A stretch of 64,000 nucleotides of DNA from Halocafeteria seosinensis (Eukaryota): contig LVLI01000294.1 in the NCBI GenBank assembly GCA_001687465.1, forward strand, positions 124,001 to 188,000, given 5' to 3'. The position numbers and the translations under genes are program-made. Shown here in pieces: positions 10,427 to 57,385 of this stretch. Numbering within the stretch: position 1 is the stretch's first letter; each line of letters starts with the position of its first letter. Under the pieces are notes generated by a model. The model searched no databases, was not told the origin of the DNA, and worked only from the letters and a program-made list of their open reading frames with translations.

Positions 10427-12936
10427 ATGTCCACAAGTCAAAGGTTAACGGCTGGTTCCAAGCAGGAAGCAAAACAAGACTTCAGACAAAAGCTGCAGCA
10501 AGTAGAGAAGGCGAAACGCAACAGAAAGGGAAATCAAGCTAACAAAAATGCTTCACTGGGAAGAAGTGTACTTGGAGCAGTCACTAATGTTGTAGCGGAA
10601 GATACTGCCAGCGTCCCGCAAAAGGAAGCTGGACGACCTCCCCGGCCCTCAAGACAACAACAAACTGCCGTCAAACCGCAAGCGAATACTAGCAGTAGCA
10701 GAAAGAAAGGAAATACTGCAGCCAACAGCAAAAACGTAAGTGCTTGTTCTGTTTCTTCTCAGTGGTGTTGATACACCGAGGTGGAAATTGCGCGCGCGCG
10801 CGTCCCTGGGACGAAGCGCCGCGCGTTGATGCTGGCATCCCCTCACTTTTCTTTTAACCCCTCGACAAAAAAGCTAATTGATTCATTTTTGATATATGGG
10901 TTGCAGAAACGGAGAACTTCCAGAACCGGATCGCAAACAAGTAGCAACAGTGGAGGTACTAAGCGCAGGAAGCGTGCCGAAGCTGTTGGAAGTGCAGATG
11001 AAGAGGATTGTAATGGGGAAGATTCGGATCAGCCCTCGTCTCCTGAACCTGAAATCCAGTTTGGAACAAGCACTGAGAGTTCGACGCGTAAACAGTCTCT
11101 GAGAAATCTAAGCACTGGTTCGCTTGAGTTTGGCCAGATGCCGGAGACGCCAACCTGTCTACTAGAGAACGCTGACGAGTCACAACTCCCTAGCGATGTT
11201 AAAGAACTAATGCGGTATGCTGTCTTTTTAAAAAGGAAGGTGAAAAAATATGAAGAAGCAGGTTCGTCCAGTTATAGTAGAGTGGAGGAAGAACGCCGAA
11301 AGAGTGTGGAACAAACAATAAACCTGGCCAACAGTGTCCGTTCTACTAGCGATATGCAAATGGAAATATGTAGGCTTCAAAAGCAACTAAAAGAGTACAA
11401 AGCAAGTAACTCAAACTCCAATGAAGCTAGTTCGAGAGCAGGACAAAAGCATAAAAAGCAACTGGATGAGTCGAATCACAAAGTAGAGGAGCTATCAACT
11501 GAAAACCAGAAACTGAGAGACCAGAAAGAAGAATTGGAGACCACTATTGAAAGAAAAAATGAGTCTATTCGAGAACTAGAGGGTAAGTTGGAACAAAAGC
11601 AACAGGAAACGGAGGAGCTGCGCAAGAGGGAAGGGGAACTAACCGACCGCTACGAAAATGCTATACACGAGAAGCAGCAAGCAGATGAGGAGGCCAAACG
11701 TTGCATCGCAGAGGCCGAAAAATTCCGAAAACAGTACGAAGAGGTGGAACAAGAGCGACTGAAGCTGAGGGAGGAGTTACTAGATCTACGAGGTGAAATC
11801 AGAGTCTTTTGTCGTGTACGTCCATTGTTACCGGGTGAAGCCGCGAAAGGGAACGGGAAAGGGAACATATTCACATTCCCGCAAGCAAAAGCGGACGGAA
11901 CTACGCGGATACAGATGCTTGATCATTCGCGGAGCAAAAACGTAGCTGGCGACACAGTAGATGCGAAAGCATGGCCTTTTGACTTCAACCGGGTATTCAC
12001 TCCTCAAAATGACCAGCAGGATGTGTTCCATGAAGTCTGTCCCGTTGTGGAGTCGTGTCTTAGCGGCTATCGGGCTTGTCTCTTTGCTTACGGGCAAACG
12101 GGAGCAGGTAAGACGTACACGATGCTAGGGAATCCTGCAGATATCCAGCACAAAACCGGAGCGGGAAGTGAGGAGTCATTTGGTATCATACCTCGGTCTG
12201 TCCAACACCTATTCCATCAAATTGAAATAATGCATTCACACGGATGGGAATCACAGCTGTCGACTCAAATGCTCGAAATATACAATGAGCAGATATATGA
12301 TCTTTTAGGGAAGCAGAAGAAGACTAATCTGGACGTTAAGATCGATAAAGACGGGGAACCCTCCATTCCGGGCCTTACGCAGCACAATGTTACGAATCTG
12401 TCGGAAATCTGGGAATTAATACAATTAGCTGCTAAGAGTAGAGCCACATCGTCCACATCCTGTAATGAAGAATCTTCGAGGAGCCATGCAGTCTTCACAC
12501 TCAAAGTAAACGGTAAGTGATTCGCTCGATTGGATTGTGAATAAGGTCCCTTTGAGCGGTACCTCATTCTGGTGCAGTCACCCATCGCGAGTCAGGCGAA
12601 CACAGAGAAGGACAGCTACACTTAATCGACTTGGCTGGAAGCGAGAGAATAAGTAAAACAGGGACCAGCGGGACAACCATGAAAGAGGCCCAAAGCATCA
12701 ATAAGAGTCTATCGACTTTAGGAAAGGTCGTAGCAGCTCTCGCTAGCAAGGCTAAGCATGTACCATTCCGCGACTCAAAGCTTACGCGACTTCTTCAGCC
12801 CTCACTAAGCAACTCGCAGAATTGTAAGGCTCTAATGATATGCAATTTGAGTCCGGTGGAGGAGCATGCTCAAGAATCATTGTGCACCTTGCGATTCGCC
12901 CAGTCGGTCGCGCAATGCACGCTGAAGCAAAAATAA
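10427..12936 (+). CDS. Kinesin-14 (C-terminal motor, Ncd/Kar3/KIFC type)
   Basis: Basic tail, coiled coil, neck LRGEIRVFCRVRP, P-loop FAYGQTGAGKTYTM, NEESSRSH, LIDLAGSER, HVPFRDSKLTRLL. Introns at ~10736-10906 and ~12513-12577. Confidence 0.93.
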
Positions 12937-15744: not shown

Positions 15745-17119
15745 GCGCAAACAAACAGTGCCAATCTCAAGAAGACACAAATAATCAATAATCCATACGG
15801 GATACTTCGAATATAAACCTACAGCCGGCACAGGGCTGATTGCTGACGAATAGACAACGCTTACTAGCTGGAAGATGTGGTTAACGAACGACCTGTGGAT
15901 GAACTTCACACAAGGACTTTTTGAATTTTCCAAGTTGGAAATTCCAACCCTACTACTCGAACGGAACTGCAGACACTGGACGAGAACAGAGAAACTCTGG
16001 GGATGAAGTGAACAGGGTGGGACGTTGCCATACTTGTGGGGCACGGTCATGGACATCCGCTTGCATGCTGAACCAGGAAGTACATAGTGTCAGGTAGTAC
16101 AGTAGTGTAGTGTTTGATCCGCTGCTTAAGTCAAGTAGCCCGTTTTATAATGGCATTTTCATGACAATTCTTCCGGCGGATAGCGCCAACGAGGATAATG
16201 GAAGTACCGGACGCTGGCCGAAGTATCGTACCTATGGCAACCAGTACCGACCCAAAGATTCAGCTTGTTATCTTGGAAATAGATGAGAAGAGAGGAATGT
16301 GAGACAAGGATAAGAAGGACTGGAGGAAACGGCAATAATAAAAATCATTCATTAAACTGATCCGTTCGTGGTTTACCCCTTACGCGGCTTCGTCGACCCC
16401 AAGTAGATTTCGAATGACCTTCCCACTTGACGTGGACTCGGAGTCTCGCTCAATGCCCCACTTCCCTGCAACGTACGACATTGATAGCAGCTTGTTCTCT
16501 TCTTGAGACTGTATGCGCCGTGGTTACTTTCGCATTGTGCGACTTTTCTTTGGACCTTTCAATTTGCTCAACCTTTAAAAAACCGAGAGGCGGATTCTTG
16601 GTGCGAGTTCTAGTATGAGATTTTGGATTTACATGATCCTTGATGCGTCGTATGGCCGTTTCTTTCTTCTTTGTTTTACCTGGAACAGATCGTGAACAGT
16701 TGGCACGTACTCGCTAAGGTTCATGAACGCAGATCGTGCTGGAACTACCTCTCGTTGCCGTAGAGGACGCGCGTGCTGCTCGAAGTTAAGTTCAACGCCG
16801 TCCTGGCTTTCTGAGAGTGACATTGAGATACGCGCAGGATTCCCTTCTCTGCGCGCCGTGCATAAATGTTGCTCTTGCTTTCACTAAAGGTTGTTGTGCA
16901 CTCAGTAAAGCAAGCTGTCTTGGATTGTGTTGGCTTTATTTGTACAGACTGCATGGGAAATACAAGGAGCTATTGGTATTATGCAGAGCCAAAGTCCAAC
17001 AATGAGCACGTATAGTAGACTAAATGAACAAACTTATGAATATAATGCGATGTATGATACATTATAAGCACGTAACTCTGAATAAGCCCCTGAAGTCGAA
17101 GTTGAAGTACATTGTTGAA

Positions 17120-20100
17120 TTAAAAGGCCTCTTCTTCTTCCTCCCCGCCACATCCAGAGTCCGTGGGACAACCGTGCGTGCAAGGATCGATTGCACCAGG
17201 ACATCCAGATGCACATATGTCGCTAAGGCAGGGATCGACAGTCGAAGACGGGGTGAAAGAAGTGGAAGAAGACGAGGACGGCGACAAGGATGGCCACGAC
17301 GACGGCGACGAGGACAGGCTAGGCGTCAACTGCGATGGAGATGAACTGGCGGAGGGAAACGGCGACCAAGACGGGGTTGCAGAAAGACGGGAAATCCCTT
17401 CATCTTCTCCCTTGTCTTCTGGAAAGTCCACTACGTCTTCTCCGGGCCAGCATGAGAAAGAAGAGGCAAAGTCCATCCCAAGCATTGGCAAGGAAGCGAC
17501 AAGACCTTTCGCATTTTGCCCAACAAGGTCTTCAGCTGGGCCCATTTGATCCCAATATAGTGACTCGGTTCCTCTCCATAGCATAGGATTGGCCGGGTCC
17601 GACGTACCCGGGCCCCATGCTGAAATGGGTGCACGGCCGAGAATACGCCTCCGAATATCGTAGACGTTGTCGCGAGTGTACACTGGGGGGCTGCCACGAC
17701 GGAGTTCCCTCCTATCAACGAGCAAGGTAGCAAGTCCTTGCACAATAGCATATGTCGTTCCTGGATCTAGTATAATTGACGCGTTCAGAATGTCGGGAAC
17801 GAAGAAACCATCGTCTGCCTCGACAGTGAAACGTGATTCTCCCAAAACACTCTCCAACGAACAGGCCGATGCAGAAACATTTTTGGGGTCACAATTATTG
17901 TTGTCACTCACAGAAAATATAGCTGCCATGTGGTTCGAATCCGTGGACCCTCCCAGCAAACCGGTTACTTCCAGTCTCTCCCTCACCTGGAAAACATACC
18001 CTTGCCATTCACCACTCAATGGTTCGGCAACGTCTGAGTTCGTTATCTCGGGTGTGTCTATCACTTGAACGAATTGGGCAACGGCAGGCAAATCTGCGAG
18101 AGCTAAAAATTCAAAACCTACACGAGGTAACTTGCCGGTGGTGCTGGAGGATGTGCCCACACCATACACGAGAGTCTCAGATCCTTGCTCTCCTCCCCAG
18201 AACCCGAATATTGGCATCGATTCAGGATTGATAGTCATCTCATCAGCCAGAAGATGGACTCCGGTCGTTCCCCCTTCTTCACGACCTTGTGCGATGTAGT
18301 ACGTTGTCCCAGGTTGCAACACCACAGTATGTGCTAGTGAAGCTGGAACGTATTCATCAGCCGACTGGACAAAGGGGGCACTAGCCAATGTATTCGCTAT
18401 ATGACAATCACCGGATTGGCTAAACGGCCCGCAAGGAGAATTCGCATCCATCGAAAACAGACCTACCCTGAACTCCTGACTTGTAGCTCCCCCGAGCAGC
18501 TTAGTCACGACAATTGACTGCGTTAAATTGAAGATGAATCCGGCGTCTCGATAGTAACTCGGATCCGGTGGAGCCCTATTGCTAGCATTCCCCACTTGGA
18601 CCTGTTCTGGTACCCAAGTCCGTCCTTGGACTGTTTCCGGAGCATTCAACAGCACGCGCAGTCCCAAGAGTGGGTTCACTCCGGTCACATCAGCAGATTT
18701 ACCCACTAACTCTGATCCAAAGCCGGTCACTCCGTAATTTAATGCCTTTGAATTCCCCGAAGGTCCCCATGAAAAGTGATTACTAAAACCTTGCTGAAAC
18801 AAATTGGCTCTGTCATACGCATCCACGTAAAAATGTGCACCACTGCTTCCATTGATGCTGCCTTGGGCCAAGAGATACACTGTGCCAGGAACCAATCGGA
18901 TAGACGCGGACAAACCGGGTGGAAAATACGTCTGGGAATTGCTCTCAAATTCACTAAAATCGACCAACGCCAACACACTCCTGACAGTGCAGCTTCCTGG
19001 GTCAGACGCCGAAGGATCGCAGGTCCCACCGTCGACGGTAAAGAGTGCTGCTTGGAAGTCGGGACTGTTAGCCTGTCCTTCTAATGCTGATACAGCTATC
19101 GGTTCATCGACTTCAAATACGTATCCTGTCCATTCTGATTCACCCTGTTTCACGTTGTCACCTACGATGCGCACCACTGACGTTTCGTCCAGTCTCCAGC
19201 GTAGACCTACAACCGGCATAATTTCACTCAACTCTCCCGTGCTCCCTGAAAGCTCTTGCGGGAGCCCCGTTCGGTTCAGGGTAAACGAAGCAGTACCAAT
19301 CTGATCCATAGTCGGTTCCCACGAACCGAAGATATCAGATGAAATGGCATCATCAACTGTAAACATGTCTGTGACATAATGATTACCACTGACCTCAGCG
19401 TCGCTGTGTCTTCCCTGCCCTAGGAAGTACCTCTTCGAAGGGGATAGTGTCACCGGTTCTGACAGACCCTCAGGAATATGCATACAACCCGGCTCTGCCT
19501 CGGCCGTGAAATTCACCATGACGAGAGGTTCACCGAGTTCCCAGACCTGAAGCTCCCCGCGACATGACTGCACCTCCACCAGTGGGAAAATGGCAGCACT
19601 AAAGTTGCCACTTGTTGCACCCCCTAGGACAGACGTGATTTCTACCCAGGCTTTTGGTTGGAAGATGTACCCTTGCCAATTGTATCCATCGATATCGGTC
19701 GGGACCAGTTCAAATTCCCCTTTCGCTGAAGGGAGAATGTGGTTCATGACTGTATCGTCTTCAAAGTTTTCCACTTCTTGGCGATGTAGGCAAAACGGCA
19801 CCTGCTTCTTGCAGTCAACAATGGTAGAAGCTTCATGCGTTAATTCTCCTTCAAGCTGCATGGACGGACAAGTGCCTTCTCCAGGGTTGTCATTAAGGCC
19901 ACTGAGAACAATGCAAGGATACATTCCAAATGAGTTGAAAGTGACATGTGGTCCTTTCACTTGGATAATACTCACAGGAACATGATCTTGTCTCCATCAT
20001 CCGCAAATGCCAACTCATTCAAAATTTCAATTTCATTATGTTCATAATATCTGTGTCCAATACAATTGAGAACTCTAAACAGTGAGCATCAGCTGCCAGT

Positions 20101-23100
20101 AACAAATACTCACATTGCCTCAAGATTGTCCACTCCGAATAATTGTGGACGAGTCACCCCTCGCAAACTATTCCTTCTCATACTTCTGGACAAGCAAGTA
20201 ACAGCAACACAAGTATATAGACATAGGAAAACTATAATACCAACAGTGAATATTGCACGCGTACAGCTTTTCCAGGTTCCTCAGCCCACTCAACGACCAT
20301 GGGTCCAAATCCGATAACTCATTGGATCGCAAGTATCTGCAAACACGCCGTTCGCTTTATATTTTATCAACTTGAAAATAGAGACCATTTGTCTCAATGC
20401 ACGTGGTGCTTACATTCCAAGAACGGAGTCTAAACCACAAAATGCACCGGCCTCAATCCTTGACAGTTGGTTATTTGCGAGAGATCTAAGCAAGCGGAAG
20501 GAAAACGTCTCAGTTTGTTGAAGCAATAAAAGACAAATCGTGGTGCTCGCTTGTGTTAAGTACTCACAGTGTTCGCAATTGGCATAGTCCCGCGAACGTG
20601 TTCTCTTCCAACTCCGTCAGATTATTTCGTTGTAAATACCTGGAATACCCATCAGTTATCATCTACAAGTTGTACCCATCACCGTAGGAACGAACGGCAG
20701 CACTTACAACTTAAGCAAGTCCCCATTGTCCTCGTGAACCCAAGTATTTGGAGCTATAGAGTCAATGTTTTTGAGCGAAAGATTTCTGTCAAATACATAT
20801 AATAGTGGCGCAACGACAGTGACGCAGACAGCAGGACGAACACTTACAGTACAGTCCCCTTGCAACGACAGTTAGATACCACTCTATGAGGGTCAAAAAA
20901 TGCATCATAGGTGGTGTGAAAGTCACAACACAATCCGGGCCCATAGCAAAACTCTAATTGTCGGCAGGACTGCAGGGCTGGCCTCTCCGAGAAGTACGTC
21001 CGTTGTAAGACATGGAGCGGAGAAATCTTCGGGCAACCAAACAACCCGGGATTGTCATCCGTTGTCTGTGGGCAGTCACTCTGACCGAAAAATCTGGAAA
21101 ACATCGCAACAGAGTATCGCATGTACTACTTGTACTGATGTGGGAGTGCAAATTCACCTGTGGTGTACGTACAGGTATGCTAGGTGGCTGTGATCGGCAA
21201 GCACGTTTTCCGGGAGTGCTTGAATGTGGTTCCGATCCAACTTTCTGCACACCATTATTGGGGTACGTTGATGGAATAACGCATTATAGATTGACGTTTT
21301 CGGTGGACAGCTTACATCCCGTTTAGCTTGGACAAAGGAGAAAAGAGATCTTCGTACATGCTCTCCAGATTATTATCATTTAACAGTCTGAGTGTTGGGA
21401 ATGAATGGCAGTGGAGGAATGATTTAAGACGACATGACACTCACGGTACTTACAACACCCTCAGCTGGGGGACACTTGAGAATGCTCGACGATTAATATC
21501 TTCAAGTATATTGTGGCTTAAGACTCTGCAAGTGTGACACAATAAGTGGAATAAAACAATTAGTACACCAGTAAGAGCAGTTACCAGGTAACTTACAATG
21601 TCACCAAATTCGAAAGCCCAGAAAAGCTTTCTTCTTCTATGTATATCAGTTCATTTCGAGCCAAAGATCTGTGGAAGAAATGACAAACCCCATCGGTGGC
21701 AATATGTATCCTCTCAGTGCACCACAATGACAACCTACAGGGTACGTAGGGAAGGGAGACCCTGAAAAACGAAACTCTGGAGGCGCTCTATTTCGTTTGA
21801 CCCCAAATTTCTGGTACACACAGAACAAAAATGTTTACTTCCGGGATAGAATTCTCGTTTTCAATACTACTTACAGATTCCTCACTTCGCTGTTGTCGTA
21901 GGGAGCCGCAAAAGCACCATTGTGGATCTCCCGAATCCCCAACGAGCTAAGATCACTGCAAAAACATCAGCACGTTTTGGGCGTCCCCTTTTCTATACCA
22001 GCATTTAACGTACAGGCACTCCACGCTCGGACAGTCACAATACAGCAACACGTCATCGTAGAATACGCAGCAGCCTATTTCGGCTCTTGGACTGGCGCTT
22101 GCGGAGACGGTAGGTGTGGTGGTAGGCGTAGCAGAGGAACTTGGTGATGGTGACGGAGTCGGGCCTCGAAAATCCGCATAACAAAAAGGGATATCTAGAT
22201 CGCTAATTTGGTCATTCAGAATGGTTCGGGTCTCATGCTTCACGTTATCAAATCCTCCCGGAGGATTACTGGCAAACGCCGGATCACATTGATCAACTCC
22301 TGGATTTCCTCCAAGATTTCTGCGTGTAAGAGCAAAGAGTCCAGCTTGGTTTACTATCACGCGCGAGGAATAATAGAAGAAAACTCTCACTCACATTTCA
22401 GCGACGTTTTCTATCTTATTAAAACTGCCTCTCCACAAAACCTCAATCTCGTTACTATGAAACTCTCTGCACAGCGTTTACGTACGTCGTCTCCGTTTCC
22501 GATATGTTTTGACATCTTACAGGAATGTGAAGTCATGCAAGCGAGGACTTACAGGGTCAACAACTTGTCATTCTCCCCAATTTCAAAGAAGTGGGGGTCT
22601 AGCTCTCCAATTTTGTTGTTATCGAAACGACTGCGGTACATATTACAAAAGCATAGATTCTCCGAGACTCCTGTGTTGGACTCTAAAACATGCATAGAAC
22701 TTACAGATGAGTCAATGCATTCACAACGTTCCTTTTGAGGAATTCCGCAGGTAGTGAGGTTAGCTCATTAAACTCCATTTCAAATCTTTGTAGCTTCGGT
22801 GTCGCGTCTAACACGTCGACATCAATACTCAAAATTTGGTTCCGATTGACAAAGCTGCGGAATCACCCACATGATGGGCCACATCTCAGTTGATTAAAGC
22901 CAATCAAGCCAAGCAGGTGTGACTTACAGACGAACAAGGTTGCCTAGTCCCTTAAGCATCTCCTTTTCTAACTCTGTCAAAGCGTTATCGTTCATTTGCC
23001 TGTAGTTACGACATCATTCCAACATGGCCAAGAATGCATATTGTCCTCAGGACTCACAGCTGTGTCAGGTTCAAGTTGCTGGGATCGGAGAACGCCCCGT

Positions 23101-23340
23101 TACTGATTGAAGTGATGCCCAAATTATTGAGTTTCCTGCAATGCACCTTTGCTTGGTACACCGATAGCATGAACAACAATCATACATATGTTCTTACAAT
23201 ACACCAGGTTCGCAATTTTCGCAGCTAACAAGTGTATCGCCTATAATTTGACAGCAGTCGGAGGCTTCCGCGCAAGTTGTGTCCAGGAGCAGCAGCGTCA
23301 CGTTGACTATCCCACATAAGAATAACGAGGAAGCCTTCAT
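17120..23340 (-). CDS. Secreted ~1,602-aa protein: signal peptide, 3 capped LRR modules (about one LRR per exon), 4 beta-rich repeats, Ser/Pro stalk, Cys-rich/acidic tail (21 exons)
   Basis: Hand-spliced exons: 23340-23198, 23135-23058, 22999-22928, 22854-22705, 22630-22553, 22466-22395, 22319-22014, 21955-21875, 21810-21739, 21668-21597, 21525-21454, 21387-21316, 21244-21173, 21093-20848, 20785-20708, 20639-20568, 20485-20414, 20336-20265, 20185-20114, 20050-19976, 19901-17120. All introns are GT-AG phase 2 and the frame is open throughout. Example LRR exons: NLGSNEIERLQSFVFQGLPSLRTL, YLQRNNLTELEENTFAGLCQLRTL. Confidence 0.85.
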
Positions 23341-24071
23341 GGTTATGACTCTCTGCGGTTAACCACGAAGTAATCGCATTGGCAGATGAAGGAATGGGAC
23401 ACTCCAAGGGGTAACAGAGCAGAGATTATTTCAGTGTAAATTTCCACCATCCTCAAGACGTCCATCAATGCAAAGTTTTCCAACAGTGTAGTACTGAGTG
23501 TACCACCACTACTGGTACTGGGCGGGTTGAGAGCGGTTTTTCGCTAGGCTGCTGAACCTATCTGAAACTGACTTAACCCAGTATTCTCGCAGTGGTTCAG
23601 GTTCTGGTTGTGCCTTTCCCAGCCTCATTGAGTAAGCTGACTATGCATGCAGAAGCAGAAATTTAAGATTACTTTGGTGAAAATTACTGTATTGTCTAAA
23701 GAACGAATCTCCCCGGAACTGGTAGAAAAGCTGGAAATCTCCCAAACCCCGATGTGTGTATTCAATATATTGGCATTTCCGCAGAGGGTTCAACAAGAAA
23801 CGGCCCAAGACTAAGCGCTCATCAGGATTGTTGCACAGTTGTAACAGTTGATACCCTGGGAATATCGGTATGCGAGTAAGATAGAGAAGCTTCGACGAGT
23901 ACAGTCTTGTTATCAGCTCCAAAAACAGCAATGGCAACCCAACCAACTGCAAACCCACGAATATTGAGGTTGACAGTGGATGGCGAGAGTCGTTTTGGCA
24001 GTGTGCAAGTGTGACAGTGAACGTATCCGTCATATACATCCCAGAGGTGACGTACGTTTTGTTTTGCAGCG

Positions 24072-25268
24072 ATGCAGCTGCGGAAGACATTGGAAGTTAT
24101 CGCCGTTGCTTGCTTGTTCACATTCTGTGGATACACATTGCTCGCCGTGGCCCCACCTGCACAAGCTGTTGAATATACTCGGAAGCCTTCAAGAGCACTG
24201 TATTATCGGCTCCAGGACTGTCAACATGACATGCCTGATGCCTTTCTACACTCCTTCGCTAACCGCGGTCTTCGACTCACCGAGGAAGCAACACAGTGGG
24301 AATACTACATTCCATGCGGCTACAACCACATGCGTCGCGAACAAGAGTCAATCGCACTGAGAGGAGGCGACCAGAAGGTTTTTTTTATCTACGCCGCGGA
24401 TAACCTCATCAGGAAAGATACGTTGTGGCATCTGTTGAGCAGTGCCATGGGGCGCATACAAGCCTCTGAGTATATGCCGAGAACCTACATCTTGTCACGA
24501 AAGCAGGATATGGTGCAATTACACAAAGACCATCGTCCCCAAACGACGTATATCTTGAAGAAGAATATCCAAAGACAGCAAGGCCTTTTCATTACGCCAA
24601 ATCTCTCGGAAATACAGTCCAATGTTCCGAAGTCCCTAGGGTGGAGCGAGGGATACGTCATTGCTCAAGAAGTCTTGCGCCATCCATTGACGATCGATAA
24701 ACACAAAATCAACTTCAGATTTTATTTAGCAGTCATATGTCACCATCAAGGAAAAGATGCCTACCTATTCAACGACGGCTTTGTGTACTACACTCCGAAG
24801 CGATACGAAGACGGTACCCAGGAGCGTCAGCGGTTGATCACGACGGTATACATGGATCGTCAAATTTATGAGAAACATCCTCTTACAATATCGCAATTTA
24901 TCCAAACGACTGTTGGAACGAAGAATAGGAGTAGACAAGGAAAAATTATTTCCTCTGCCTCCAGTTTGCTGCATGATGTTTTGGGGGCTATCGAAACGTC
25001 TGTTTGCCGACCATCTCAACTCGATTCTGTGACCACTTTTCAACTGTTTGGATGCGACGTAGAATTTAACGAGCAGCTACGACCTAAATTAATAGAGCTA
25101 AATAAAGGGCCAGATTTGAACTTTAAAGATGATATAGATCGACAGCTGAAAGTGGATTTGGTAGACCGTTTGCTTGACGTGGTAGACGGAAAGCAGCAGC
25201 CATCTTCAGGGAGATATTTCTTTTCTATTTGGTCTAACAAAGTTAAAAAAAGTCAATCCTTGAAATAG
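24072..25268 (+). CDS. Tubulin-tyrosine-ligase/TTLL-family ATP-grasp enzyme with N-terminal signal/anchor; intronless
   Basis: YMPRTYIL, YILKKNIQRQQGLFI, IAQEVLRHPLTIDKHKINFRFYLAV, FQLFGCDVEF..PKLIELNKGP (ExN motif) are TTL-family ATP-grasp motifs. Hydrophobic N-terminus VIAVACLFTFCGYTLLAVAPPAQA. Confidence 0.85.
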   Translation: MQLRKTLEVIAVACLFTFCGYTLLAVAPPAQAVEYTRKPSRALYYRLQDCQHDMPDAFLHSFANRGLRLTEEATQWEYYIPCGYNHMRREQESIALRGGDQKVFFIYAADNLIRKDTLWHLLSSAMGRIQASEYMPRTYILSRKQDMVQLHKDHRPQTTYILKKNIQRQQGLFITPNLSEIQSNVPKSLGWSEGYVIAQEVLRHPLTIDKHKINFRFYLAVICHHQGKDAYLFNDGFVYYTPKRYEDGTQERQRLITTVYMDRQIYEKHPLTISQFIQTTVGTKNRSRQGKIISSASSLLHDVLGAIETSVCRPSQLDSVTTFQLFGCDVEFNEQLRPKLIELNKGPDLNFKDDIDRQLKVDLVDRLLDVVDGKQQPSSGRYFFSIWSNKVKKSQSLK

Positions 25269-30401: not shown

Positions 30402-33276
30402 TCATTGTGCTGTGGATGAGCCTTGTGGTGCAAGAGACGGAGAAGGGGCATCCACTCGACGATACAAGTAGAGATATCCAAGGTCCAGAGGAGGATTAAC
30501 GGATTCGGCCACTGTACGGTCATTCATGATAACCCATTTGTCTCCATGCTTGATGTGACATACATAGTGGCCAGTACCAGTGTTCTTGCCTATATGGGAT
30601 ATGAACCCGGCTAGTTGGTACTCAGGTTTTCCATCTTCTAGTTCTGGCATGGTACCACTTTCTCCGCCAGCAGAACCTGCAGGTTCCTGGTTGAGCTTCT
30701 CCGCATGGGACAGTAGCCAATCGCCGGCTCTTTCAGGGTCTCCATTCGTCTCGCGTAGAGCCCTACGTGCGTGTTCAGCCTGAAAACCCATGCTGGTTAG
30801 CATACTGACCGTTTCTTCATCCACTCCAGTCTCTTGCTGTGGTGCAGCGGTCGTCTCTTCTAGAGGAGTGTCAAAGTCCGGGTCTTCCATATGCTGCATT
30901 ATCCATTCGGCAGCTTGTTCAGCAGAGGCATTATTCGTAGCCACTGCTGCCCTTTTGCAACCATTATCAGGGAATCCCATGGATACTAGCTGTTGAACAA
31001 TCTGAGGATCCGGTTGAGGCTGATTACCAGCGTTTTCAGGTTGGTCTTCGAGCTCCTCCTCGCCTGGCTGTTTTCCAGCTCCTTTCAGGTTTGTGAGATC
31101 GAGCTGCTCAGGAGCTTTGATTCGAACGTTTATCTTCGTCGGTTGCCAGTTTTCTCCGATAACGTAGCGCCCTATTCCTATCCACAAGTAACGAGGAAAA
31201 GTCTTGATTCCAGTCTTACGGCCTGCCCTTCCGCGCTGATTAGTGGCCGGAGAAAGGAAATCATCGACAAGCTCCTCCTCTTTCCAGTTATCCAACAGCC
31301 GCTGGAAAGGGACTTGTTTAATGTTTTCAACTTCGGTCCCTTCGCTGGGTTCGGTCTTTTGGCGTTTGGTGCTGTCGGTACTCTCTTGCTCGGTTGGGTG
31401 TTCTTCTTTGGGTATTTGCAGCATCAGTAGATTGTCTGTCCGCTGATCGTACTTCACTTTGTTGGTCTGTTGGCATTGCGTTCTGGTTTCCATTTCGAAC
31501 GAGAACATGCGGGAGAGCCACGCAGGGAAACCACTCTCCCCGCCTGACGGGTTATCAAGTTGGCCAGCACGCTCAATTCTGCCCACACAATAACGAGTAT
31601 CAACAATGTCCGCCTGTAAAGACATAGATTAAGCTTACCTTTCCATCCTCTCTAGTGTGTACTGCAAAAATTCAGTAGCATCTTGTTGTCTGTTTGTGGC
31701 AAATTCTGGGTGATTTCTTCCGACGACCGCCTTTAACATTCGAGCTGTGACATATATCGAGTCGGCCAGTTTTGAAGCCTGTTGACGTAAACGCTCAGCT
31801 TCCTTCATATCTGTGTCACTATCTTTTATCTCTTCTCCAGATAAAAGTCGTTGACGGACATCGGGCTTTTCGTCCAAGAAATTCTGCAGTTTATCAAGAG
31901 CTTCGGTGGCTTCTTTCGTCACTGAAACAGTCAAAGACGAGAGTGAACAGATGAATGCTTCCACATCCTTATCAATCAACCACAACTACTTACCATATCG
32001 ATCTGTCTGGAGACCAACCGCAAGTTTCCTTAGCTGGCAAGCGAAGTCCGTCGCTGGATCAGAGGAAACTCCAGAAAATACCCGCGTAACGTCATCCCCA
32101 ACCGTGAATGCTCCTAACAAACGCAGCCGTACTTCGGGTAATGAAAATAGCACCTGGTAAACACTATTCATGTAGCAACTATTTCCAAGGTTTTTCATAC
32201 CAATCAATCCTTTGTCGGCCAATGGAACCAAGCGCGAGCCCTCTTCCTGAATACTGTTAAATTCAGCTCTCTGATTCAAGTCTAGAGTTAGTTCAGCCAT
32301 AGTCTTTTCAGTTTTCTCCATCTGTTTCACTTCTATACCAAAGTGTTGCAGATGTTCTGGTAGTTTCGGATCCTCTACGAGGCTGTCTTCATCAGTGGCG
32401 TAGCTGAAGCAGTCCCCTTTTCCATCAGGGGTAATCGTTCCCAGTTTGACACAAAGGGGGTACTTCTTTCCTGTCTCTTCAAAGTGCTGCAACGCATGGC
32501 TGTTGCCGCCGCTCCCATCAACTGCGAGTCACTAAGTAACCATCATGCAAACGATGCCTCGTATTTTATGGGGGAAAACCCGAAATGGGTAATGACTTAC
32601 ACTGTCGTCTCCCACACCCGATGAACCCCGTAGAGAGGTTAAGCCACAAGTTCTCCCTCATATCGCAATATTGACATTTCCACGTAGAAGGATCAGGAGA
32701 TATCCTTGGAGCGTCGGCAAGTTGTTCAATGGTTGATGCATACTTAGTTACAGGAATTTCTTCCTCCCACGCCGCCTGTTGTACCTCGAGGTTCTTGCTT
32801 GCATCATCATGGCTGAGGATTGCGCGGGCAGCTTGCGCAATGGACGGAGGGAGGTCTTTATCATCTAGAGCGAAAGAATACGGCTGCAAGTTGTATAACA
32901 CAACAACTGAATTTTTCTTGTCATACTCAGGTTCGTCATCCAGAGGCGCTCCTCCTTCCACACCAATGCCTACTTTGGTCAACTTCTGGGATTCAGCTTG
33001 GCGCTCTTTCTGCTGCTGCTCTTCCGTCTTGGTCCATTTCTGATGAACGTACACAGCGCACCCAGTTTTTTGATGGTCGAACAGAAGGAGGTCATGGGCA
33101 ACAGAATAGTACTTCATGATGTTCGTGTAGATGCCTTTTTCTGACAAAGGTGTATCAAACGTGAAGGCGCATTCCTCTCGAAAGACTTTGTCGGAGACTG
33201 TAGGAGATACGATTCCTCCCTCCACATTGTAGCACACAGCGAGCGCGTCGCTTCTTAGATCGTCGAACTGAGCCAT
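30402..33276 (-). CDS. USP5: Ubiquitin C-terminal hydrolase USP5/USP13 (Ubp14; isopeptidase T) (multi-exon)
   Basis: ZnF-UBP (ENLWLNLSTGFIGCGRRQ; YPLCVKLGTITP), Cys box GMKNLGNSCYMNSV, QQDATEF, two UBA domains (LVSMGF, LTSMGF), His box HIGKNTGTGHYVCHI. Confidence 0.95.
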
Positions 33277-33629
33277 TGGAGCAGTGTGGAATGAAAATAT
33301 TAACAATAGGTGTTATGTAAACCTCCCTTCGGTAAGAAAACGAAGAAAAAAGATACAAAGCGCTGACTTTGAAACGAAGGAGAAAAGTATCCCGATAAAG
33401 AGAAAACAAGATAGAATACCGTCTGACGGTAATCAAGCGGAGAAAAACACTTTCTCTGTACGCAGAGCACTGTGAGAACGATCCAGCCTGTAGTCTATCA
33501 TCTAGTAATGACACCTACATAAGTAACTTCTTGAACTTTGAGGGATAGATGGCTTCGAGCTGCTTGTTTATTACGTAACACCTCTTATAAATAAGAAAAG
33601 GCTGGACACTCTATATGACAGAGGAATCC

Positions 33630-35920
33630 TTAGGAGGCATATCGGCCCTCCCGGATTCGCTTTAACGCATTTGCTAAGCGGGTAGCGGCTTCATACATTT
33701 GTTGCTCGTTGCCTGACCGTGCTGCGTGCATGGCTTCCTCGACGAGTCGGACGTTATCATCGTACGTTAACTCTTCTGTCTTTAGTCTTGTACCAGCTCT
33801 CGCTCCTCCATTCCCCTCTTCCTCAGCAGAATAAATTTTAACCACCGACTCTTCTTCGCTTGAAGCATCATGTTCCGCGTCGTTGAATACAGTTTCCCAA
33901 GCACCAGCAACAGAGGTGCTACCGCGACGACCTCTTCCGTAACGAAGTTGTTGCCGTTGGTAGTAACTAAGTCCCTCCCGCGAGTCTTCACTATTCAGCT
34001 GATTCCACGTCTGGCGGACCCCATTTCCAGTGGGAGAGTCATGTAGTATTGAATATCCGCCGTGGGCCTTCTTTAATTGATGCATGCGCAGCAACCGCCG
34101 CCTCCAGATTCTCATAGCTTCGTCTGTAGCGTGCATATCCTCTGATTCTGGCTGAAACCCTAGCTCTTGTCTGCAAAAAGTAGCAGCAACATCCACATCC
34201 GTAAAAACACCAGTGTAAACTTGGAAACTTATATACAAACGTACCGGACGTCTGGATCAGTAAGGTGCGATAATATGACACTTGCTTCATCTTCGCCCAC
34301 GGCCTTCTTCAGAGCCTCCTTTCTTTCTCTCATTGCTTCTTCAAGAAGCTCCGTCACCTCTGATTTCACACGGGGACTGGACCTATCGTCGTCTTGGTTG
34401 CGCTCAACCACACTCTCGTAACGTATAAGAACTTCTAAGTAGTCGCAAGCCAATTCTCGAATCATATGTTGTTCCCGAAGGTTATGTGACGCAATTAGAG
34501 CTTGCAGCCCTCGAGACCTATTTCTCAGGGCATGTGCGGAAGGGGTAGTCCGCACAGGCGGCAGGACAGACGTAGACTCTGGTAGACGGAACGATTCCGT
34601 TGCGTCGGTGGCCCGAGTCAATCTTGAGCCCTGATGACTCACAGTATCGTCTGCTCGCGACGCATTGATACGTCTATTGCTTGACTGATGAAAACTCACT
34701 TCTGTCTGTCGTCCACTGGGTTTTTTCTCACCCTCGCTACCATTGGGGGAAACAGCCACCGAAGTTGAGTTAGGAGCAGACGTGTTACCGGCTTGATCAT
34801 TACTTCTTGTGGCGGGATTTACCGCGCTACTGGAGGCATGGGCCGCATTCTGAGGCGAAGAACGGCTCTTATCAGTATTAGCATTTACATCGTTCTGTCT
34901 TCTACCAGTAGGCGAGGATGAGGCTGTTCCTTCATTATGATAGGAACTTACAAGTTGTTGGGCTTCAGAGATCAAGTCATTCAAATCCTCACCTTCCTTT
35001 CCGTCGGTCTGGGCAGATTCAGCTGGGGTTAAGATTCGGTGTCCTGGTGAAGACAATTGCTGAGCTTTTTTAGTAGCGGCCTCAGCTGCGGCTTTGGATG
35101 GCTTTTCGTCATTTTTATTCGCTACGTGCTTATCCGCTACGTGCTTATCCGCTCCGTTTCCCGCTGGACCAGTGCCATGTGAGACTCCAGCGCTGTCTTG
35201 GATAGCACCCGGTTGTTGTTGTGCTGAAGAGTCTTTGAAGACCTCTTCCCAAGCTCCAGCAATGCTGGTAGAGCCTCTTCTGGCTCTACCATATTTAAGT
35301 TGTTGTCTCTCGTAGTAGCTGGCCCCGGCATCAGGATCTGCGCTATTGAGACTATCCCATGCTTGTTTATAGCCGCGGGAAGTAGGGTGGTCGTGGTTAG
35401 TGTTCCTGTAGCCTGAAATTGGTTTGGCACTGTTATTATGTACTAAACGACGCCGAAACAATCGGCCGTTATCCATCTCTTCTTCGAATTGTACCTCTGG
35501 AGACAGTGCCTCTCGCAGTTCGGGGTCCTCGAGCAGAGCCAGCAGCGTGCCGAAAGCAGCCCCTGCGATTTTTCGTAATCGATATGTGTTGTCCTGGTGC
35601 TGTTCCTCTAAATCAAACAAGGCCGCCGGTTTCCGGTCACTTTGTTCCATCTGTGACAACCGCTGTTTAAACAGTTCAATTCGCTGTTCAATGTCCAGTC
35701 GTTCAAGGCAAAGCTGGCGGACAGCGAGTTGTTTCGGTTTCGAAAACGTAGCAACTATGCCATCGAATCCCCTTGCTTGACGTTGCCTTGGAATCGCTGA
35801 AGGTGTATGGCGTCCAAGCTGTAAGACAGCGGAACTATCTCTTTCGAACAGGGCCGTGGTGTCTCCATCCCCTCCTCCACGGCGCCTATCGCCCACTGTA
35901 GATGGCGAGCGATGGGACAT
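33630..35920 (-). CDS. Hypothetical protein with two copies of a ~100-aa conserved repeat (2 exons; intron ~34172-34243)
   Basis: Long ORFs joined in phase 2 (DPDVR/QELGF). Internal duplication of the motif W..LNS.D...G.SYY.RQQL.YGR.RRGSTS.AGAWE.VF. Confidence 0.75.
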
Positions 35921-36734
35921 TGCGTTCTGCGTTGGAAGTCAAAATATAAATTCTATTGGATTCTCGCAAAAGCCATATTATTTTGCTAAACCAAAGCGTG
36001 TAGATAACCTAGAAATCGTCTGCCTCGACCAAAGTCGCGTCAACTAGACCGTTTGAGAGGGCGAACCCCCACATATCCTCCATACAAAGACTCCACGCAA
36101 CGAATTATTCGAAGCCCCTCAATGAAAACACCATAGAGACTTACTTTTGCTCAACTTAAAGTCGGCGGTCAATCAGCTTGCCGGCTGTGGAGTGCGAACA
36201 AAACTCGTTTTCAGTTAAATGTGGCGCGGAGGATCCCCATTAATTGCTTTTACGCCCTTTCTCGACTCTGTGTACAGACGATTTTCTGGGCAGCTACGTT
36301 CCATAAACGAAGGGGCAATTATCTAGCGACGTTTGTCTGTGCAGTGTACTCCTGTCGGTTGCGTGGTGCCCTGCGCAGATGAGAAAGCCAGTGACTGGCA
36401 CGCCGCAACAGAGGAGAAAAGCGGTTTGACAGGGTAAGATTACACGGCTTGTAGAATCTGAATTGGATCCGATACACCTAAGGAAGCTCGGTCCAAGGAC
36501 TAGATGCACAATCACAGTATGAGATAAGAATGTGCTTGTCATTTCCCCCTTGTATGGTCGTTTTTGGGGACGCTCGTTACCGGGTGCAATAAGTGCGGAA
36601 AACGACGCCAAGTTGGCACCTTGCTGTGAAGCCGGGTGATGTCCTGACCTTGTGGAACTCGAAACAATATGGCACAGATAAGACGTTTCAACTGATAAGT
36701 CCGTGGGAACGTGCACTGTAATGGGAAGGTGAAA

Positions 36735-39383: not shown

Positions 39384-42300
39384 ATGGTAAGTGACGCAGC
39401 CCGAAACAGGAGGGCAAATTGACAGGGGAAGCGCAAGGGGAACCAAAAAGCCTAGGGATAGGGCGGGATATAGCGTCGAGTTCCCCTGTGGCCCCTCTGA
39501 AAAAGCCTTTTTGTCGTTTTACGACACTACTTCTGATTCCATTTCCTCCTTTATCATGCTACTAACTCGCCTTCTTTCTTTTTATTGATCCAGGTGAATT
39601 TCACAGTTGACCAGATGCGGTAAGTTGATTGACATGCTCTGTTTTCGCGGACGCTATGAAGGGCAGAAGTGTGTCGTGCCAGCCCAAAGGGGAAACCGCG
39701 GTGCTGCTCTCTTCTATCTTGAATGGGCATGAGTGGGAAACGGCAAAAGAATGTAGCCTGTTATGTGGGCAGATTCGTGATTAGGGAAGACATGCTCGTG
39801 CCCAACGTTCCTGCATCGTCTTCCAAGACCAGTGAATTTGACGTGGTGTTGAAGACAGAGTGTCACAGTGGTGGATGTTATTTTTTGTTTCTGCAGAGGC
39901 ATCATGGACTTCACGGATAACATCCGTAACATGTCCGTGATTGCACACGTTGACCACGGAAAGTCTACGCTGACTGACTCCCTGGTGTCCAAGGCTGGTA
40001 TTATAGCTTCCTCCAAGGCTGGAGAGGCCCGGTTCACTGACACCCGTGCTGATGAACAAGAACGTGCTATCACCATCAAGTCTACTGGTGTCTCTATGTA
40101 TTTCGAATACGACTTGGCCTATGAACGCAAACTTGACGCAGAAGATGCCGCTGAACGTGGAGAGGCTCCCCCAGTCACTGATATCCGTGAGCAACCTGAG
40201 GATGGCGAAAATATCATCATCAGCAGTGACAAGTCGTTTCTCATCAACTTGATTGACTCCCCGGGTCACGTTGACTTCTCCTCTGAAGTGACTGCCGCTC
40301 TGCGTGTGACCGATGGTGCCCTAGTCGTGGTGGAATGTATTTCGGGTGTCTGTGTGCAGACTGAAACCGTGCTGCGTCAATCTCTTGCCGAGCGTATTCG
40401 CCCTGTGGTGATGTTGAACAAGCTCGATCTTGCCATCCTCTCGATGAAGTTGGAAGCCGAAGAAGCTTACACTCGCTTCCAAAAGACCATTGAAGACGTG
40501 AACGTCATTATCTCTACTTACGGTGGTGAAGAGCTCTCTAAGATTATGAAGTGCGACCTGATGGTGGCTCCTGAGAAGGCGAACGTTGCCTTCGGGTCCG
40601 GTCTCCATGCATGGGGTTTCACGCTCAAGAACTTCGCCAAGGTGTATGCTAACAAGTTGAAAACCACTCGTGGGAAAATGCTCCGCCGTCTCTGGGGCAA
40701 CAACTTCTACAAGAAAGAAGGTGGCAAATGGACGAACAAGAGCGACAACGGGGCCAACAAGCGTGGTTTTGTCAAGTTCATCTACGAACCCATCATGCAA
40801 TTGATGGATGCTTGCATCAACAACCGTGACGAGAAGATCGAGAAGATGCTTAAAGGCATTGATGTCACCCTAAACAGTGACGAGAAGAACTTGAGAGATA
40901 AGCCGTTGATGAAACGTGTAATGCAGAAGTGGTTGCCTGCCGGTGATGCTATTTTGGAGATGATTGTCATGCACCTCCCCTCTCCCAAGGAAGCCCAGAA
41001 GTACAGAGCTTCTCATCTGTATGAGGGACCTGATGATGACGAATGTGGCGTCGCAATGACCAACTGTGATCCTAACGGACCTCTTATGATGTACGTTTCT
41101 AAGATGGTACCAACCAACGATGCCGGTCGCTTCTACGCTTTCGGTCGTGTATTCTCTGGTAAAATCGCCACTGGGCAAAAGGTCCGAATTATGGGCCCTA
41201 ACTACGTACCCGGGAAGAAGACTGAGTTGTGGGTCAAGAACATCCAGCGCACTGTCATCATGATGGGATCCAAGGCGGAACAAGTCAGTGACATCCCTGC
41301 CGGAAACACTTGCGGGTTGGTCGGTGTGGACAATTACTTGTTGAAGAGTGGTACCATCTCCACCTCTGAAGTTGCTCACAACATGAAGATGATGAAATTC
41401 TCTGTGTCCCCAGTTGTCCGTGTGGCTGTAGAATGCAAAAACAACGCTGACTTGCCCAAGCTTATCGAGGGTTTGAAGCGTTTGGCCAAGTCTGACCCAA
41501 TGGTACAAATCACTCAGGAAGAGTCGGGCGAAAACATCATTGCCGGAGCTGGTGAACTCCACTTAGAGATTTGTCTGAAAGATCTCCAGGAAGAGTATAT
41601 GAAGGGCTCTCCCATCAAGATTTCCGAACCTGTAGTATCGTACCGTGAGACCGTTACCGAGGAATCATCTCAGCAGTGTCTGTCGAAGTCTCCGAACAAG
41701 CATAACCGTTTGTTCTGCACAGCTAAACCTATGGCTCAATCTCTGCAAGAAGAAATTGATGAGGGCAAGGTTGTACCCGCTCCTAAGGACCCGAAGGAAC
41801 AGTCCAGATACTTACAGGAGAAACATGACTTTGCGATTGACCCCAAGCGACTTTGGGCTTTCGCACCGGACACAAACGGGCCGAACTTCTTGATCGACCA
41901 GACCCAAGGTGTACAATACTTGAACGAAGTAAAGGAATCAATTAACGCCGGGTTCCAATGGGGTACCAAGAACGGACCGCTGTGTGAAGAACCGTGCCGT
42001 GGTGTAATCCTCCAGGTACTCGATGTTACTTTGCACTCTGATACTATCCATCGTGGAATGGGGCAAATAATGCCTACCGCTCGACGTGTGCTGTTTGCCT
42101 CTATGTACACAGCTAAGCCTACTCTTCTCGAGCCTTACTTCTTGGCTGAAATCGCTGTTCCTCAGGATGAAACTGGTGGTGTTTACTCTACTCTCGCTGT
42201 CCGCCGTGGAGCCGTGCAGGAAGAAAACCCTGTCGAAGGGACACCTATGACCAACATTCGTGCGTTCCTGCCTGTCAACGAGTCCTTCGGGTTCGACAAG

Positions 42301-42483
42301 TTGCTTCGCCAAAACACAGGAGGAAAGGCTTTCCCACAATGCACATTCCACCACTGGGATGTCATGGGTGGAGATCCGTTTGAAGAGGGGAACAAAGTGG
42401 CAGAAATTGTTTCGGCTTCCCGTGAGAGGAAGGGACTTAAGGCCGAAATCCCCTCTTTGGACAACTACATGGACAAGCTTTAA
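39384..42483 (+). CDS. EEF2: Translation elongation factor eEF2 (exons 39384-39386, 39594-39619, 39897-42483)
   Basis: [64 protein letters not shown], diphthamide loop [13 protein letters not shown]-terminus YMDKL. Confidence 0.98.
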
Positions 42484-44558: not shown

Positions 44559-44807
44559 TCTTCCACTCTGCCCTACCTACCATGCTACCTAAATTTCAAA
44601 CAACATGTGCAATAGCACACTTGGTACAACAAACCTAGCAATACTACCTATACAAAGACTGTATCCCCGTGAAGGCCCTGAACTTCCTGAAAGGCCCTTA
44701 GTTCACATCATAACAAGCCACCGTTGAATTATAAGTATTGATTTTTTGTACCCAAGGTGTCCTGGAGTATTTATTGTGGAAGATACTCTCTACGAAGCAA
44801 GTTCGTG

Positions 44808-47701: not shown

Positions 47702-48140
47702 ATCTCTCCTACTTATATCAACTGTATCAATTTGACTCTTCACTCCCTGTTTCTATGTATACACACCCAAAATGCCTCTTGATGTGAGGTTGAGGGGACT
47801 TCCCAAACAATTAGTGGTTTATTGTTCCATTACCTCACCACATAGCAAGTTTTTCCACACACACACATTTACCGAGGTCTTCCATTACATCCATCCATTG
47901 CAGGTGTGCCTATGTAACCACCTCCATCGTTCGTGTATAGGCCATAGACTAGTATGGTGTCACCTCAAGAAAACATCCGTCGACTCGCTCCGTCTCACCA
48001 GAGGACCTCTACTTGTACTGCGTATTACAGAATAAGTTTTGAGTATATGTACTCAATTCCAATTGCATAGCATCGATGTTTGATTTTAGTATCTGCTAAT
48101 TTAGCTTCTGCTTGTATACCGTACACAGAGAGCTCATATA

Positions 48141-56992: not shown

Positions 56993-57385
56993 TTTCAAGT
57001 TGCTTCGCTGAGATGTTGTACCTATGCGGCTATTACGTGGCCTGAATAGCTCTTTTCAATGGTATACTATCATGTCTGAATGAAGCAGGAGATCTTCGCT
57101 TCAATCTCCTACCCAACCCAACAATCATTCCTGAGCTCTATTCATCCATTTCGACTGGTTCCAGACACCTGGACGTGTATGGACTGTAGTTGGAAAATTT
57201 GTCAAAATTACCACCATTGTAGTGTTTTAGGTTCTCTTGCGCTGTTCAAACCAGTACTAGTGGATTGAACGAGTACGGCAACGAGACATTTCACGGTCTC
57301 AACGAAGGGCCAAATCTCACCCGCAAATTTTCGTTGTTAGCCCTCTCTGAAGGCAGATTTATGGCCCTACAGGAGCGATAACACT

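What the first reader, a model, noticed from the sequence alone, without database searches (positions are those of the whole stretch)
19901..23340. Hidden one-LRR-per-exon cassette array: 17 LRR exons, all symmetric phase 2
Seen in sequence: a stretch the ORF track shows as noise splices cleanly into a signal-peptide exon (MKASSLFLCGIVNVTLLLLDTTCAEA) and 17 LRR-only exons: eleven of 72 nt, three of 78 nt, one each of 75 and 81 nt, and one double repeat of 150 nt. Two linker exons (306 and 246 nt) are interspersed. All 20 introns are GT-AG phase 2, so any internal exon can be skipped, duplicated or swapped without a frameshift. Established: 24-aa extracellular LRRs are recognition surfaces, and one-repeat-per-exon LRR arrays with exon shuffling have been proposed as a diversifying recognition system in brown-algal ROCO genes. 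Inference: this may be a modular, possibly diversifying, recognition protein in a protist.
Basis: partly seen in the sequence, partly recalled or inferred. Interest (0 to 1): 0.9.

Follow-up and report, generated by a model that had tools for sequence, protein, structure and literature searches.

The report
Old one-repeat-per-exon secreted LRR protein gene
A protist gene for a predicted secreted binding protein builds its leucine-rich-repeat arms from equal-phase mini-exons, a layout already known from brown algae, ciliates and animals, and here the repeats look old and fixed rather than shuffled.

Summary
In detail: on the minus strand, 20 GT-AG introns (58-86 nt) are all phase 2, and the 17 LRR exons have the stated sizes. 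The 1602-aa product is a predicted signal peptide, three cysteine-capped six-repeat LRR modules, four jelly-roll domains (PHR/lectin-like fold), a Ser/Pro stalk and a Cys tail, with no membrane anchor. The host is a stramenopile.

Diversification is not supported. The exon register is Ectocarpus type II, which the ROCO paper found unshuffled, not ROCO type I. The repeats are at most 48% identical, and the 64 kb hold no spare LRR exons. Spliced contigs of a close second copy join exons 14-19 in the same order with no skipping. Contigs nearly identical to this copy run unspliced through intron 20, so the LRR-to-jelly-roll junction rests on homology only.

This scan found similar arrays before in other protist genomes. 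Verdict: real, a new member of a known kind, with a domain combination I found nowhere else.

The parts
23198..23340 (-). Exon 1 (143 nt): predicted signal peptide and Cys N-cap of module 1
   Evidence: most hydrophobic 19-residue window of the protein at residues 6-24; no SignalP run
22395..23135 (-). LRR module 1: exons 2-6 (23135-23058, 22999-22928, 22854-22705 double repeat, 22630-22553, 22466-22395); six repeats
   Evidence: intron 3 bridged in a second-copy contig of X4
22014..22319 (-). Exon 7 (306 nt): C-cap of module 1, Pro/Ser/Thr spacer, N-cap of module 2
21173..21955 (-). LRR module 2: exons 8-13 (21955-21875, 21810-21739, 21668-21597, 21525-21454, 21387-21316, 21244-21173); six repeats
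   Evidence: intron 13 bridged, intron 12 suggested by a loose end, in second-copy contigs
20848..21093 (-). Exon 14 (246 nt): C-cap of module 2 and N-cap of module 3
19976..20785 (-). LRR module 3: exons 15-20 (20785-20708, 20639-20568, 20485-20414, 20336-20265, 20185-20114, 20050-19976); six repeats
   Evidence: introns 14-18 bridged by one X4 contig of a second copy
19902..19975 (-). Intron 20 (74 nt): unspliced in contigs of X2, X3 and X4; holds the ATG (19924) of the 934-aa database protein P0001
17120..19901 (-).
17450..19705 (-). Four tandem ~175-aa beta-sandwich domains (about 19705-19172, 19174-18629, 18595-18086, 18031-17450)
   Evidence: profile built from 17 outside homologues finds 4 copies, i-E 1e-32, 9e-35, 4e-23, 3e-17; model of copy 2 pLDDT 87; fold matches
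17123..17389 (-). Ser/Pro-rich stalk (17389-17240) and Cys-rich acidic tail (17239-17123); no hydrophobic anchor

Best explanation
This is a 21-exon gene for a predicted secreted, likely multivalent binding protein whose one-repeat-per-exon layout is likely a relic of old exon and module duplication, not a working diversity generator. Shown: the exon layout, three capped modules of six repeats each, four jelly-roll domains, no membrane segment. Inferred history: a single-repeat phase-2 exon was duplicated into a capped six-repeat module, the module was triplicated long ago, one intron was lost (exon 4), and the array was joined in phase 2 to an intron-free exon of four beta-sandwich domains of a kind also found in surface proteins with prokaryote-type domains. 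The whole gene was later duplicated. Inferred function: in a phagotrophic flagellate the protein would sit in the cell coat or food-vacuole lumen and bind prey or particles, the LRR arcs binding protein and the jelly rolls binding surface glycans. It has no cytoplasmic part, so it would tether or opsonise rather than signal.
For: Three modules of exactly six repeats with homologous caps. Repeats are deeply diverged: best of 153 pairs 48% aa, mean nt identity 47%, longest shared word 10 nt, introns unrelated. No extra LRR cassette among 549 minus-strand and 584 plus-strand AG..GT candidates in 64 kb; best outside score 5.9 against 11.3 or more for 16 single-repeat exons, which trained the profile. 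Introns of 58-86 nt leave little or no room for a spare 72-nt exon. A second copy keeps exons 14-19 in order, and 12-13-14 in another contig. Listed differences to other copies lean synonymous in LRR exons (6 of 10 codons) and exon 7 (15 of 28) (tables were cut to 40 rows). Type II exons are reported unshuffled in Ectocarpus. Jelly-roll fold: Z 12.4 cyanophage capsid chain 9jwb_Z, 10.9 PHR domain, 9.9 Cwp84 protease/lectin-like entry, rmsd 3.0-3.5 over 139-153 residues.
Against: No joint from a contig identical to this copy was listed; all 7 joints lie in contigs 81-96% alike. Intron 20, which links LRRs to the jelly rolls, is unspliced in X4, X2 and X3 contigs and in P0001. Order of the inner repeats across the three modules carries no signal (p = 0.51 without the first repeat, 0.025 with it), so ancient shuffling is not excluded. 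Identity to the other copy is uneven (exon 13 81%, exons 15 and 18 96%), which could be fast evolution or gene conversion. Exon 21 differences are 11 nonsynonymous of 18 listed codons. The binding function rests on fold and family knowledge only; a shared fold shows no function.
Confidence: 0.68

Rival explanations
1. The locus gives two products. An internal start near 20200, or kept intron 20, yields an LRR-less 934-aa jelly-roll protein without signal peptide and perhaps a separate LRR-only secreted protein that stops in intron 20. The full-length form would be rare or conditional.
For: Contigs with 0-1 differences run unspliced through introns 19 and 20 in X2 and X3 (19788-20208, 19788-20204) and through intron 20 in X4 (to 20050). 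The first 8 residues of EukProt protein P0001 are encoded in intron 20. X4's contig ends exactly at the exon 20 acceptor, a weak hint of mixed sense splicing.
Against: Ten upstream ATGs precede the ATG at 19924 in an unspliced RNA from 20208. Contigs carry no strand, so this RNA may be antisense: a plus-strand gene ends about 55 nt from this gene's stop (read by eye). Exon 21 opens with the C-cap that module 3 needs. The runs are of unrecorded kind and from one study, and P0001 may come from the same material.
Confidence: 0.17
2. The array is an active diversification cassette: exon skipping, or exchange of exons between paralogues, varies the binding face, as proposed for brown-algal ROCO genes and shown at DNA level for Tetrahymena LRR genes.
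For: All 19 internal exons are frame-symmetric. At least one close second copy exists. Identity to it is uneven between exons. One unexplained 92-nt joint (22826-22919) lies in a contig of the DNA-like run X1. Only one window could be searched, as no genome is held.
Against: Type II register. No near-identical exons. No spare exons. 0 of 7 listed joints skip an exon. The 92-nt joint is not an exon-plus-intron unit and may be a diverged stretch.
Confidence: 0.1
3. This copy is a fading duplicate: its LRR half is no longer spliced into mRNA, and the other copy carries the function.
For: Spliced joints were listed only for the other copy, and contigs of this copy keep introns 19-20.
Against: The 1602-codon frame is intact and all 40 splice sites are canonical. 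Listed differences between copies lean synonymous in the LRR half.
Confidence: 0.05

Closest known systems
Ectocarpus 'type II LRR exons' of LRR-kinases and 8 other loci (PMC3341825; abstract and passages)
   Same: One 24-aa LRR per 72-nt exon, running xLxxNxL...LxxL; a stramenopile host; no inactivated or antisense spare exons.
   Different: No kinase here; three separately capped modules; four jelly-roll domains; unicellular host.
Brown-algal LRR-ROCO genes, type I exons (PMC3341825 passages; PMC11378527 passages)
   Same: 72-nt, phase 2, one repeat per exon.
   Different: Different exon boundary, no ROC-COR, predicted secreted, tiny introns, no spare exons, no recent duplicates.
Tetrahymena 90-bp LRR exon arrays (PMC6564038 passages)
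   Same: Consecutive one-repeat exons with phase 2 introns.
   Different: 72 nt not 90; no clonal exon expansion seen; introns too short for retroelements; family size here unknown.
Vertebrate gonadotropin-receptor LRR ectodomains (as cited in PMC11378527, passage)
   Same: One repeat per exon, all introns phase 2; a fixed gene (recalled).
   Different: No seven-helix receptor part here.
PHR, DUF4082 and Lectin_like (Cwp84) beta-sandwich domains
   Same: Fold of the exon-21 domains; atlas feature score 0.91 for DUF4082, 0.89 for PHR and Lectin_like.
   Different: No Pfam match; identity to solved chains 6-21%; closest relatives are 24 unnamed proteins at about 28-42% (one 59-aa fragment 68%).

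Membership tests
Brown-algal LRR-ROCO shuffled arrays (type I) | ROC-COR GTPase after the LRRs | tested here: not met
   No Pfam family in the 958-aa last frame; residues 742-1493 are four jelly rolls
Brown-algal LRR-ROCO shuffled arrays (type I) | Type I boundary (exon runs GxxP...LxLxxNxLx) | tested here: not met
   Exons run xLxxNxL...LxxL with the split codon on the Leu before xLxxN against the definitions
Brown-algal LRR-ROCO shuffled arrays (type I) | 72-nt phase 2 exons, one repeat each | tested here: met
   11 of 17 LRR exons are 72 nt; 20 of 20 introns phase 2
Brown-algal LRR-ROCO shuffled arrays (type I) | Inactivated or antisense LRR exons in introns | tested here: not met
   None in 64 kb, both strands
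Brown-algal LRR-ROCO shuffled arrays (type I) | Different exon number or order between recent paralogues | tested here: inconclusive
   Exons 12-19 in order in contigs of another copy; the rest seen only in patches; no genome held
Brown-algal LRR-ROCO shuffled arrays (type I) | Positive selection on concave-face residues | tested here: inconclusive
   Only 10 differing LRR codons were visible, 6 synonymous
Ectocarpus type II LRR exons | Exon follows xLxxNxL...LxxL, 24 aa | tested here: met
Ectocarpus type II LRR-kinases | Kinase domain | tested here: not met
Tetrahymena 90-bp LRR arrays | Exons of exactly 90 nt | tested here: not met
Tetrahymena 90-bp LRR arrays | Hundreds of genes with clonally expanded exons | not testable with these tools
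Typical extracellular LRR proteins (LRR_8 type, Cys-capped) | 24-aa LxxLxLxxNxLxxLxxxxF repeat | tested here: met
   7 of 17 exons hit LRR_8 singly at E 0.002-0.009, under the 27-bit cut-off because each holds one or two repeats
Typical extracellular LRR proteins (LRR_8 type, Cys-capped) | LRRNT / LRRCT caps | tested here: inconclusive
   Cys-rich ends recur at all three modules but hit no Pfam cap model
DUF4082 / PHR / Lectin_like | Pfam profile match | tested here: not met
   0 families for the domain; none of these among 18 aligned members
DUF4082 / PHR / Lectin_like | Jelly-roll beta-sandwich fold | tested here: met
   Predicted model, Z 9.6-10.9 to PHR and Cwp84 chains
Carbohydrate-binding module | Glycan binding | not testable with these tools
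   Needs a binding assay

The most novel reading that the evidence does not exclude
A free-living bacterivorous stramenopile keeps a small family of secreted LRR-plus-lectin-like prey- or virus-binding proteins, varies their binding face by skipping or exchanging single-repeat exons, and uses retention of intron 20 or an internal start as a switch that uncouples the three LRR arms from the four jelly-roll domains.
Probability: 0.1. Interest if true: 0.65.

Novelty: new member of a known kind. Interest (0 to 1): 0.25.

Why it matters
The exon layout is known from brown algae, ciliates and vertebrates, and this scan has met it in other protists, so it adds one more lineage (a likely bicosoecid) to a widespread pattern. 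It also shows that frame symmetry alone is no sign of shuffling. The less ordinary part is the protein: three capped LRR modules joined to four copies of an unnamed PHR/lectin-like domain. It is a candidate for prey capture in a phagotroph, where such proteins are poorly known (my own knowledge, not searched). If skipping or a splice switch were shown, it would be a simple test case for receptor diversification in a unicellular predator.

Tried and rejected
No RNA holder is on record among the 4 runs listed; I read X4 as RNA from its spliced joints and X2/X3 only by likeness to it. In X2 and X3 no contig was laid on most of 20210-23420, and X4 has gaps there; this lack of cover is no evidence on expression, and contig depths were not used to rank isoforms.

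Two metagenome scans gave no relative: 40 pattern hits for P0001 and 61 for the neighbouring TTL protein, none confirmed. The genome-collection scan with the homologue alignment did not run. A search with the cap exons for spliced LRR-bearing proteins of 178-2000 aa returned only P0001 among 1939 candidates; the search with exon 21 returned only P0001 among 7994 scored. Both are weak negatives. The spliced protein could not be folded or searched as one piece.

A tree of 30 domain rows left the four window copies on long, unresolved branches, outside the one supported clade that holds the Cys-repeat proteins; I claim no donor and no gene transfer. The 59-aa P0124 and the partial second domain of P0123 were left out as too short. 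The bacterial promoter scan does not apply to a eukaryote. The greedy intron walk in the APC8-like neighbour is reliable for two introns at most.

Papers: PMC5296948 passages gave no usable intron-phase statement. Searches for 'Halocafeteria' with 'leucine-rich' gave 0 papers, for DUF4082 2 papers (listing only); PMC5447177 has 0 occurrences of 'LRR'. Supplements of these papers were not opened and might list this gene. Earlier-finding look-ups by place, sequence and relatives were empty.

Full report
Observation. The region is a minus-strand gene. Joining the GT-AG sites seen gives 21 exons and one frame of 1602 aa from 23340 to 17120. All 20 introns are phase 2 and 58-86 nt long. The split codon is Leu or Ile at 20 of 20 junctions, and every intron would break the frame or add a stop if kept. 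A transcript-verified intron in the neighbouring NOG2 gene is 67 nt with the same signals but phase 0 (one intron only), so phase 2 is not forced on all genes here.

Anatomy. Exon 1 holds a predicted signal peptide and a cysteine cap. The 18 repeats fall into three modules of six. Exons 7 and 14 and the start of exon 21 share an NPG..C..FC motif that closes each module, and exons 1, 7 and 14 end in a CC..C.C motif that opens the next. A model of copy 2 (pLDDT 87) is a beta-sandwich. Its best matches are a cyanophage capsid chain (Z 12.4, rmsd 3.5, 153 aligned), PHR domains (Z 10.9, 10.4) and the Cwp84 entry (Z 9.9), with similar weak matches to phage virion proteins. The atlas places it near unnamed clusters and DUF4082. 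Its 24 relatives at E up to 0.001 are unnamed; some carry prokaryote-type surface domains such as InlB B-repeats, fn3, a peptidoglycan-binding domain or an archaeal pilin start, others Cys-rich repeats. A Ser/Pro stalk and a Cys-rich acidic tail follow; there is no membrane segment. The mature protein has a computed pI of 4.4.

Host. The named best hits of the window's NOG2 protein are oomycetes and other stramenopiles at about 61-66%. Both NOG2 and exon 21 match EukProt entries of transcriptome GECG01. I recall that prefix as the bicosoecid Halocafeteria seosinensis; no call confirmed it. The window's 47.1% GC fits the 46.8% given for that species (bioRxiv 10.64898/2026.06.25.734631, parts 1-2 of 3 read). 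The name is a guess; 'stramenopile' is the supported level.

Transcript evidence. Four runs of unrecorded kind from one study hold the stretch. X1 covers introns and looks like DNA; it may be the window's own source. It shows contigs nearly identical to the window plus others 90-95% alike, with loose ends at both ends of the gene (17127 and 23300). This points to at least one paralogue at another locus, though a strongly diverged haplotype is not excluded. X4 has joints at introns 3, 13, 14, 15, 16, 17 and 18 (7 of 20), four of them exact and three within a few differing letters, and a loose end that matches exon 12 at 26 of 30 bases (the last compared by eye). All lie in low-depth contigs 81-96% alike, so they validate the model through the paralogue. 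One contig joins exons 14-19 in the window's order; no joint skips an exon. Against a simple picture: two other second-copy contigs in X4 are unspliced (introns 5-6, and intron 8), and contigs with 0-1 differences from this copy run unspliced through intron 20 in X2, X3 and X4 and through intron 19 in X2 and X3. The database protein P0001 (934 aa) starts at an ATG inside intron 20. Such an RNA would carry ten upstream ATGs, and a plus-strand gene ends about 55 nt from this gene's stop, so it may be antisense; contigs cannot tell. The junction at intron 20 therefore rests on the cap homology and splice signals alone.

Is it shuffled? The Ectocarpus paper defines two 72-nt exon types; type I (ROCO) shows spare intronic and antisense exons and scrambled order, while type II (xLxxNxL...LxxL) showed no sign of shuffling (PMC3341825, passages). 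The exons here are type II. None of the type I hallmarks appeared: the best of 153 repeat pairs is 48% identical, mean nt identity is 47%, and introns are unrelated; no spare cassette lies on either strand of the window. The first repeats of modules 1 and 2 resemble each other (44%), but inner repeats carry no order signal (p = 0.51), so old shuffling can be neither shown nor excluded. The visible differences between copies are 6 of 10 synonymous in LRR exons, 15 of 28 in exon 7 and 7 of 18 in exon 21 (cut tables, some may be allelic), more synonymous than the roughly one in four expected without selection (established knowledge).

Mechanism. Most likely (0.68) this is a fixed, secreted, multivalent binding protein built by old exon and module duplication. 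Binding to prey or coat material is inferred from fold and family, not shown. PMC4987115 (passages) warns that predicted secreted proteins of phagotrophs often stay in vacuoles, so the food vacuole is as likely a place as the cell surface. Rivals: a two-product locus with an LRR-less form (0.17), an active cassette (0.10), a fading duplicate (0.05).

Known and new. One-repeat, phase 2 LRR exons are in print for brown algae and gonadotropin receptors (PMC11378527, passages) and Tetrahymena (PMC6564038, passages). This scan holds 29 findings with these words in at least 2 other genomes. I found no protein with this domain order (limited searches) and no paper on LRR genes in the guessed species. 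Novelty: new member of a known kind. Interest 0.25.

Noticed in passing
window 17100-20208: Contigs nearly identical to the window in X2-X4 span this stretch unspliced through intron 20; internal start, intron retention or antisense RNA cannot be told apart. X4's contig ends exactly at the exon 20 acceptor (20050).
   Followed up: partly
window about 16234-17065, + strand: Small spliced gene for a hydrophobic protein whose stop lies about 55 nt from the LRR gene's stop (tail to tail); a loose end at 16804 in X1 and X2 suggests it also has a second copy.
   Followed up: no
window 22826-22919: A contig of the DNA-like run X1 skips or replaces 92 nt around intron 3 and the start of exon 4; may be a diverged stretch of the paralogue.
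   Followed up: no
window 22705-22854: Exon 4 is a fused double repeat, likely one lost intron.
   Followed up: partly
proteins P0122, P0123, P0130, P0136, P0138, P0140, P0141: The same unnamed jelly-roll domain occurs in 1-3 copies in proteins that form one supported clade (96/96), several with Cys-rich repeats and one 2360-aa multi-pass protein; an undescribed domain family shared with prokaryote-type surface proteins.
   Followed up: partly
window 24051-25268 +, 10772-12520 +, 39853-42483 +, 48105-49995 +, 30402-33312 -: Neighbours are ordinary housekeeping genes (TTL, kinesin, EF-G/EF-2 family, NOG2, ubiquitin hydrolase), so the gene is not in an LRR cluster.
   Followed up: partly
protein P0003: NOG2 of a close unnamed relative (86% identity, 162-kb contig); its assembly could hold the orthologue, but no open tool reached it.
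   Followed up: no
window 34229-35938 -, 43140-44576 -, 51584-52987 +, 57341-58360 +, 58763-61195 +: Long open frames with no Pfam match.
   Followed up: no
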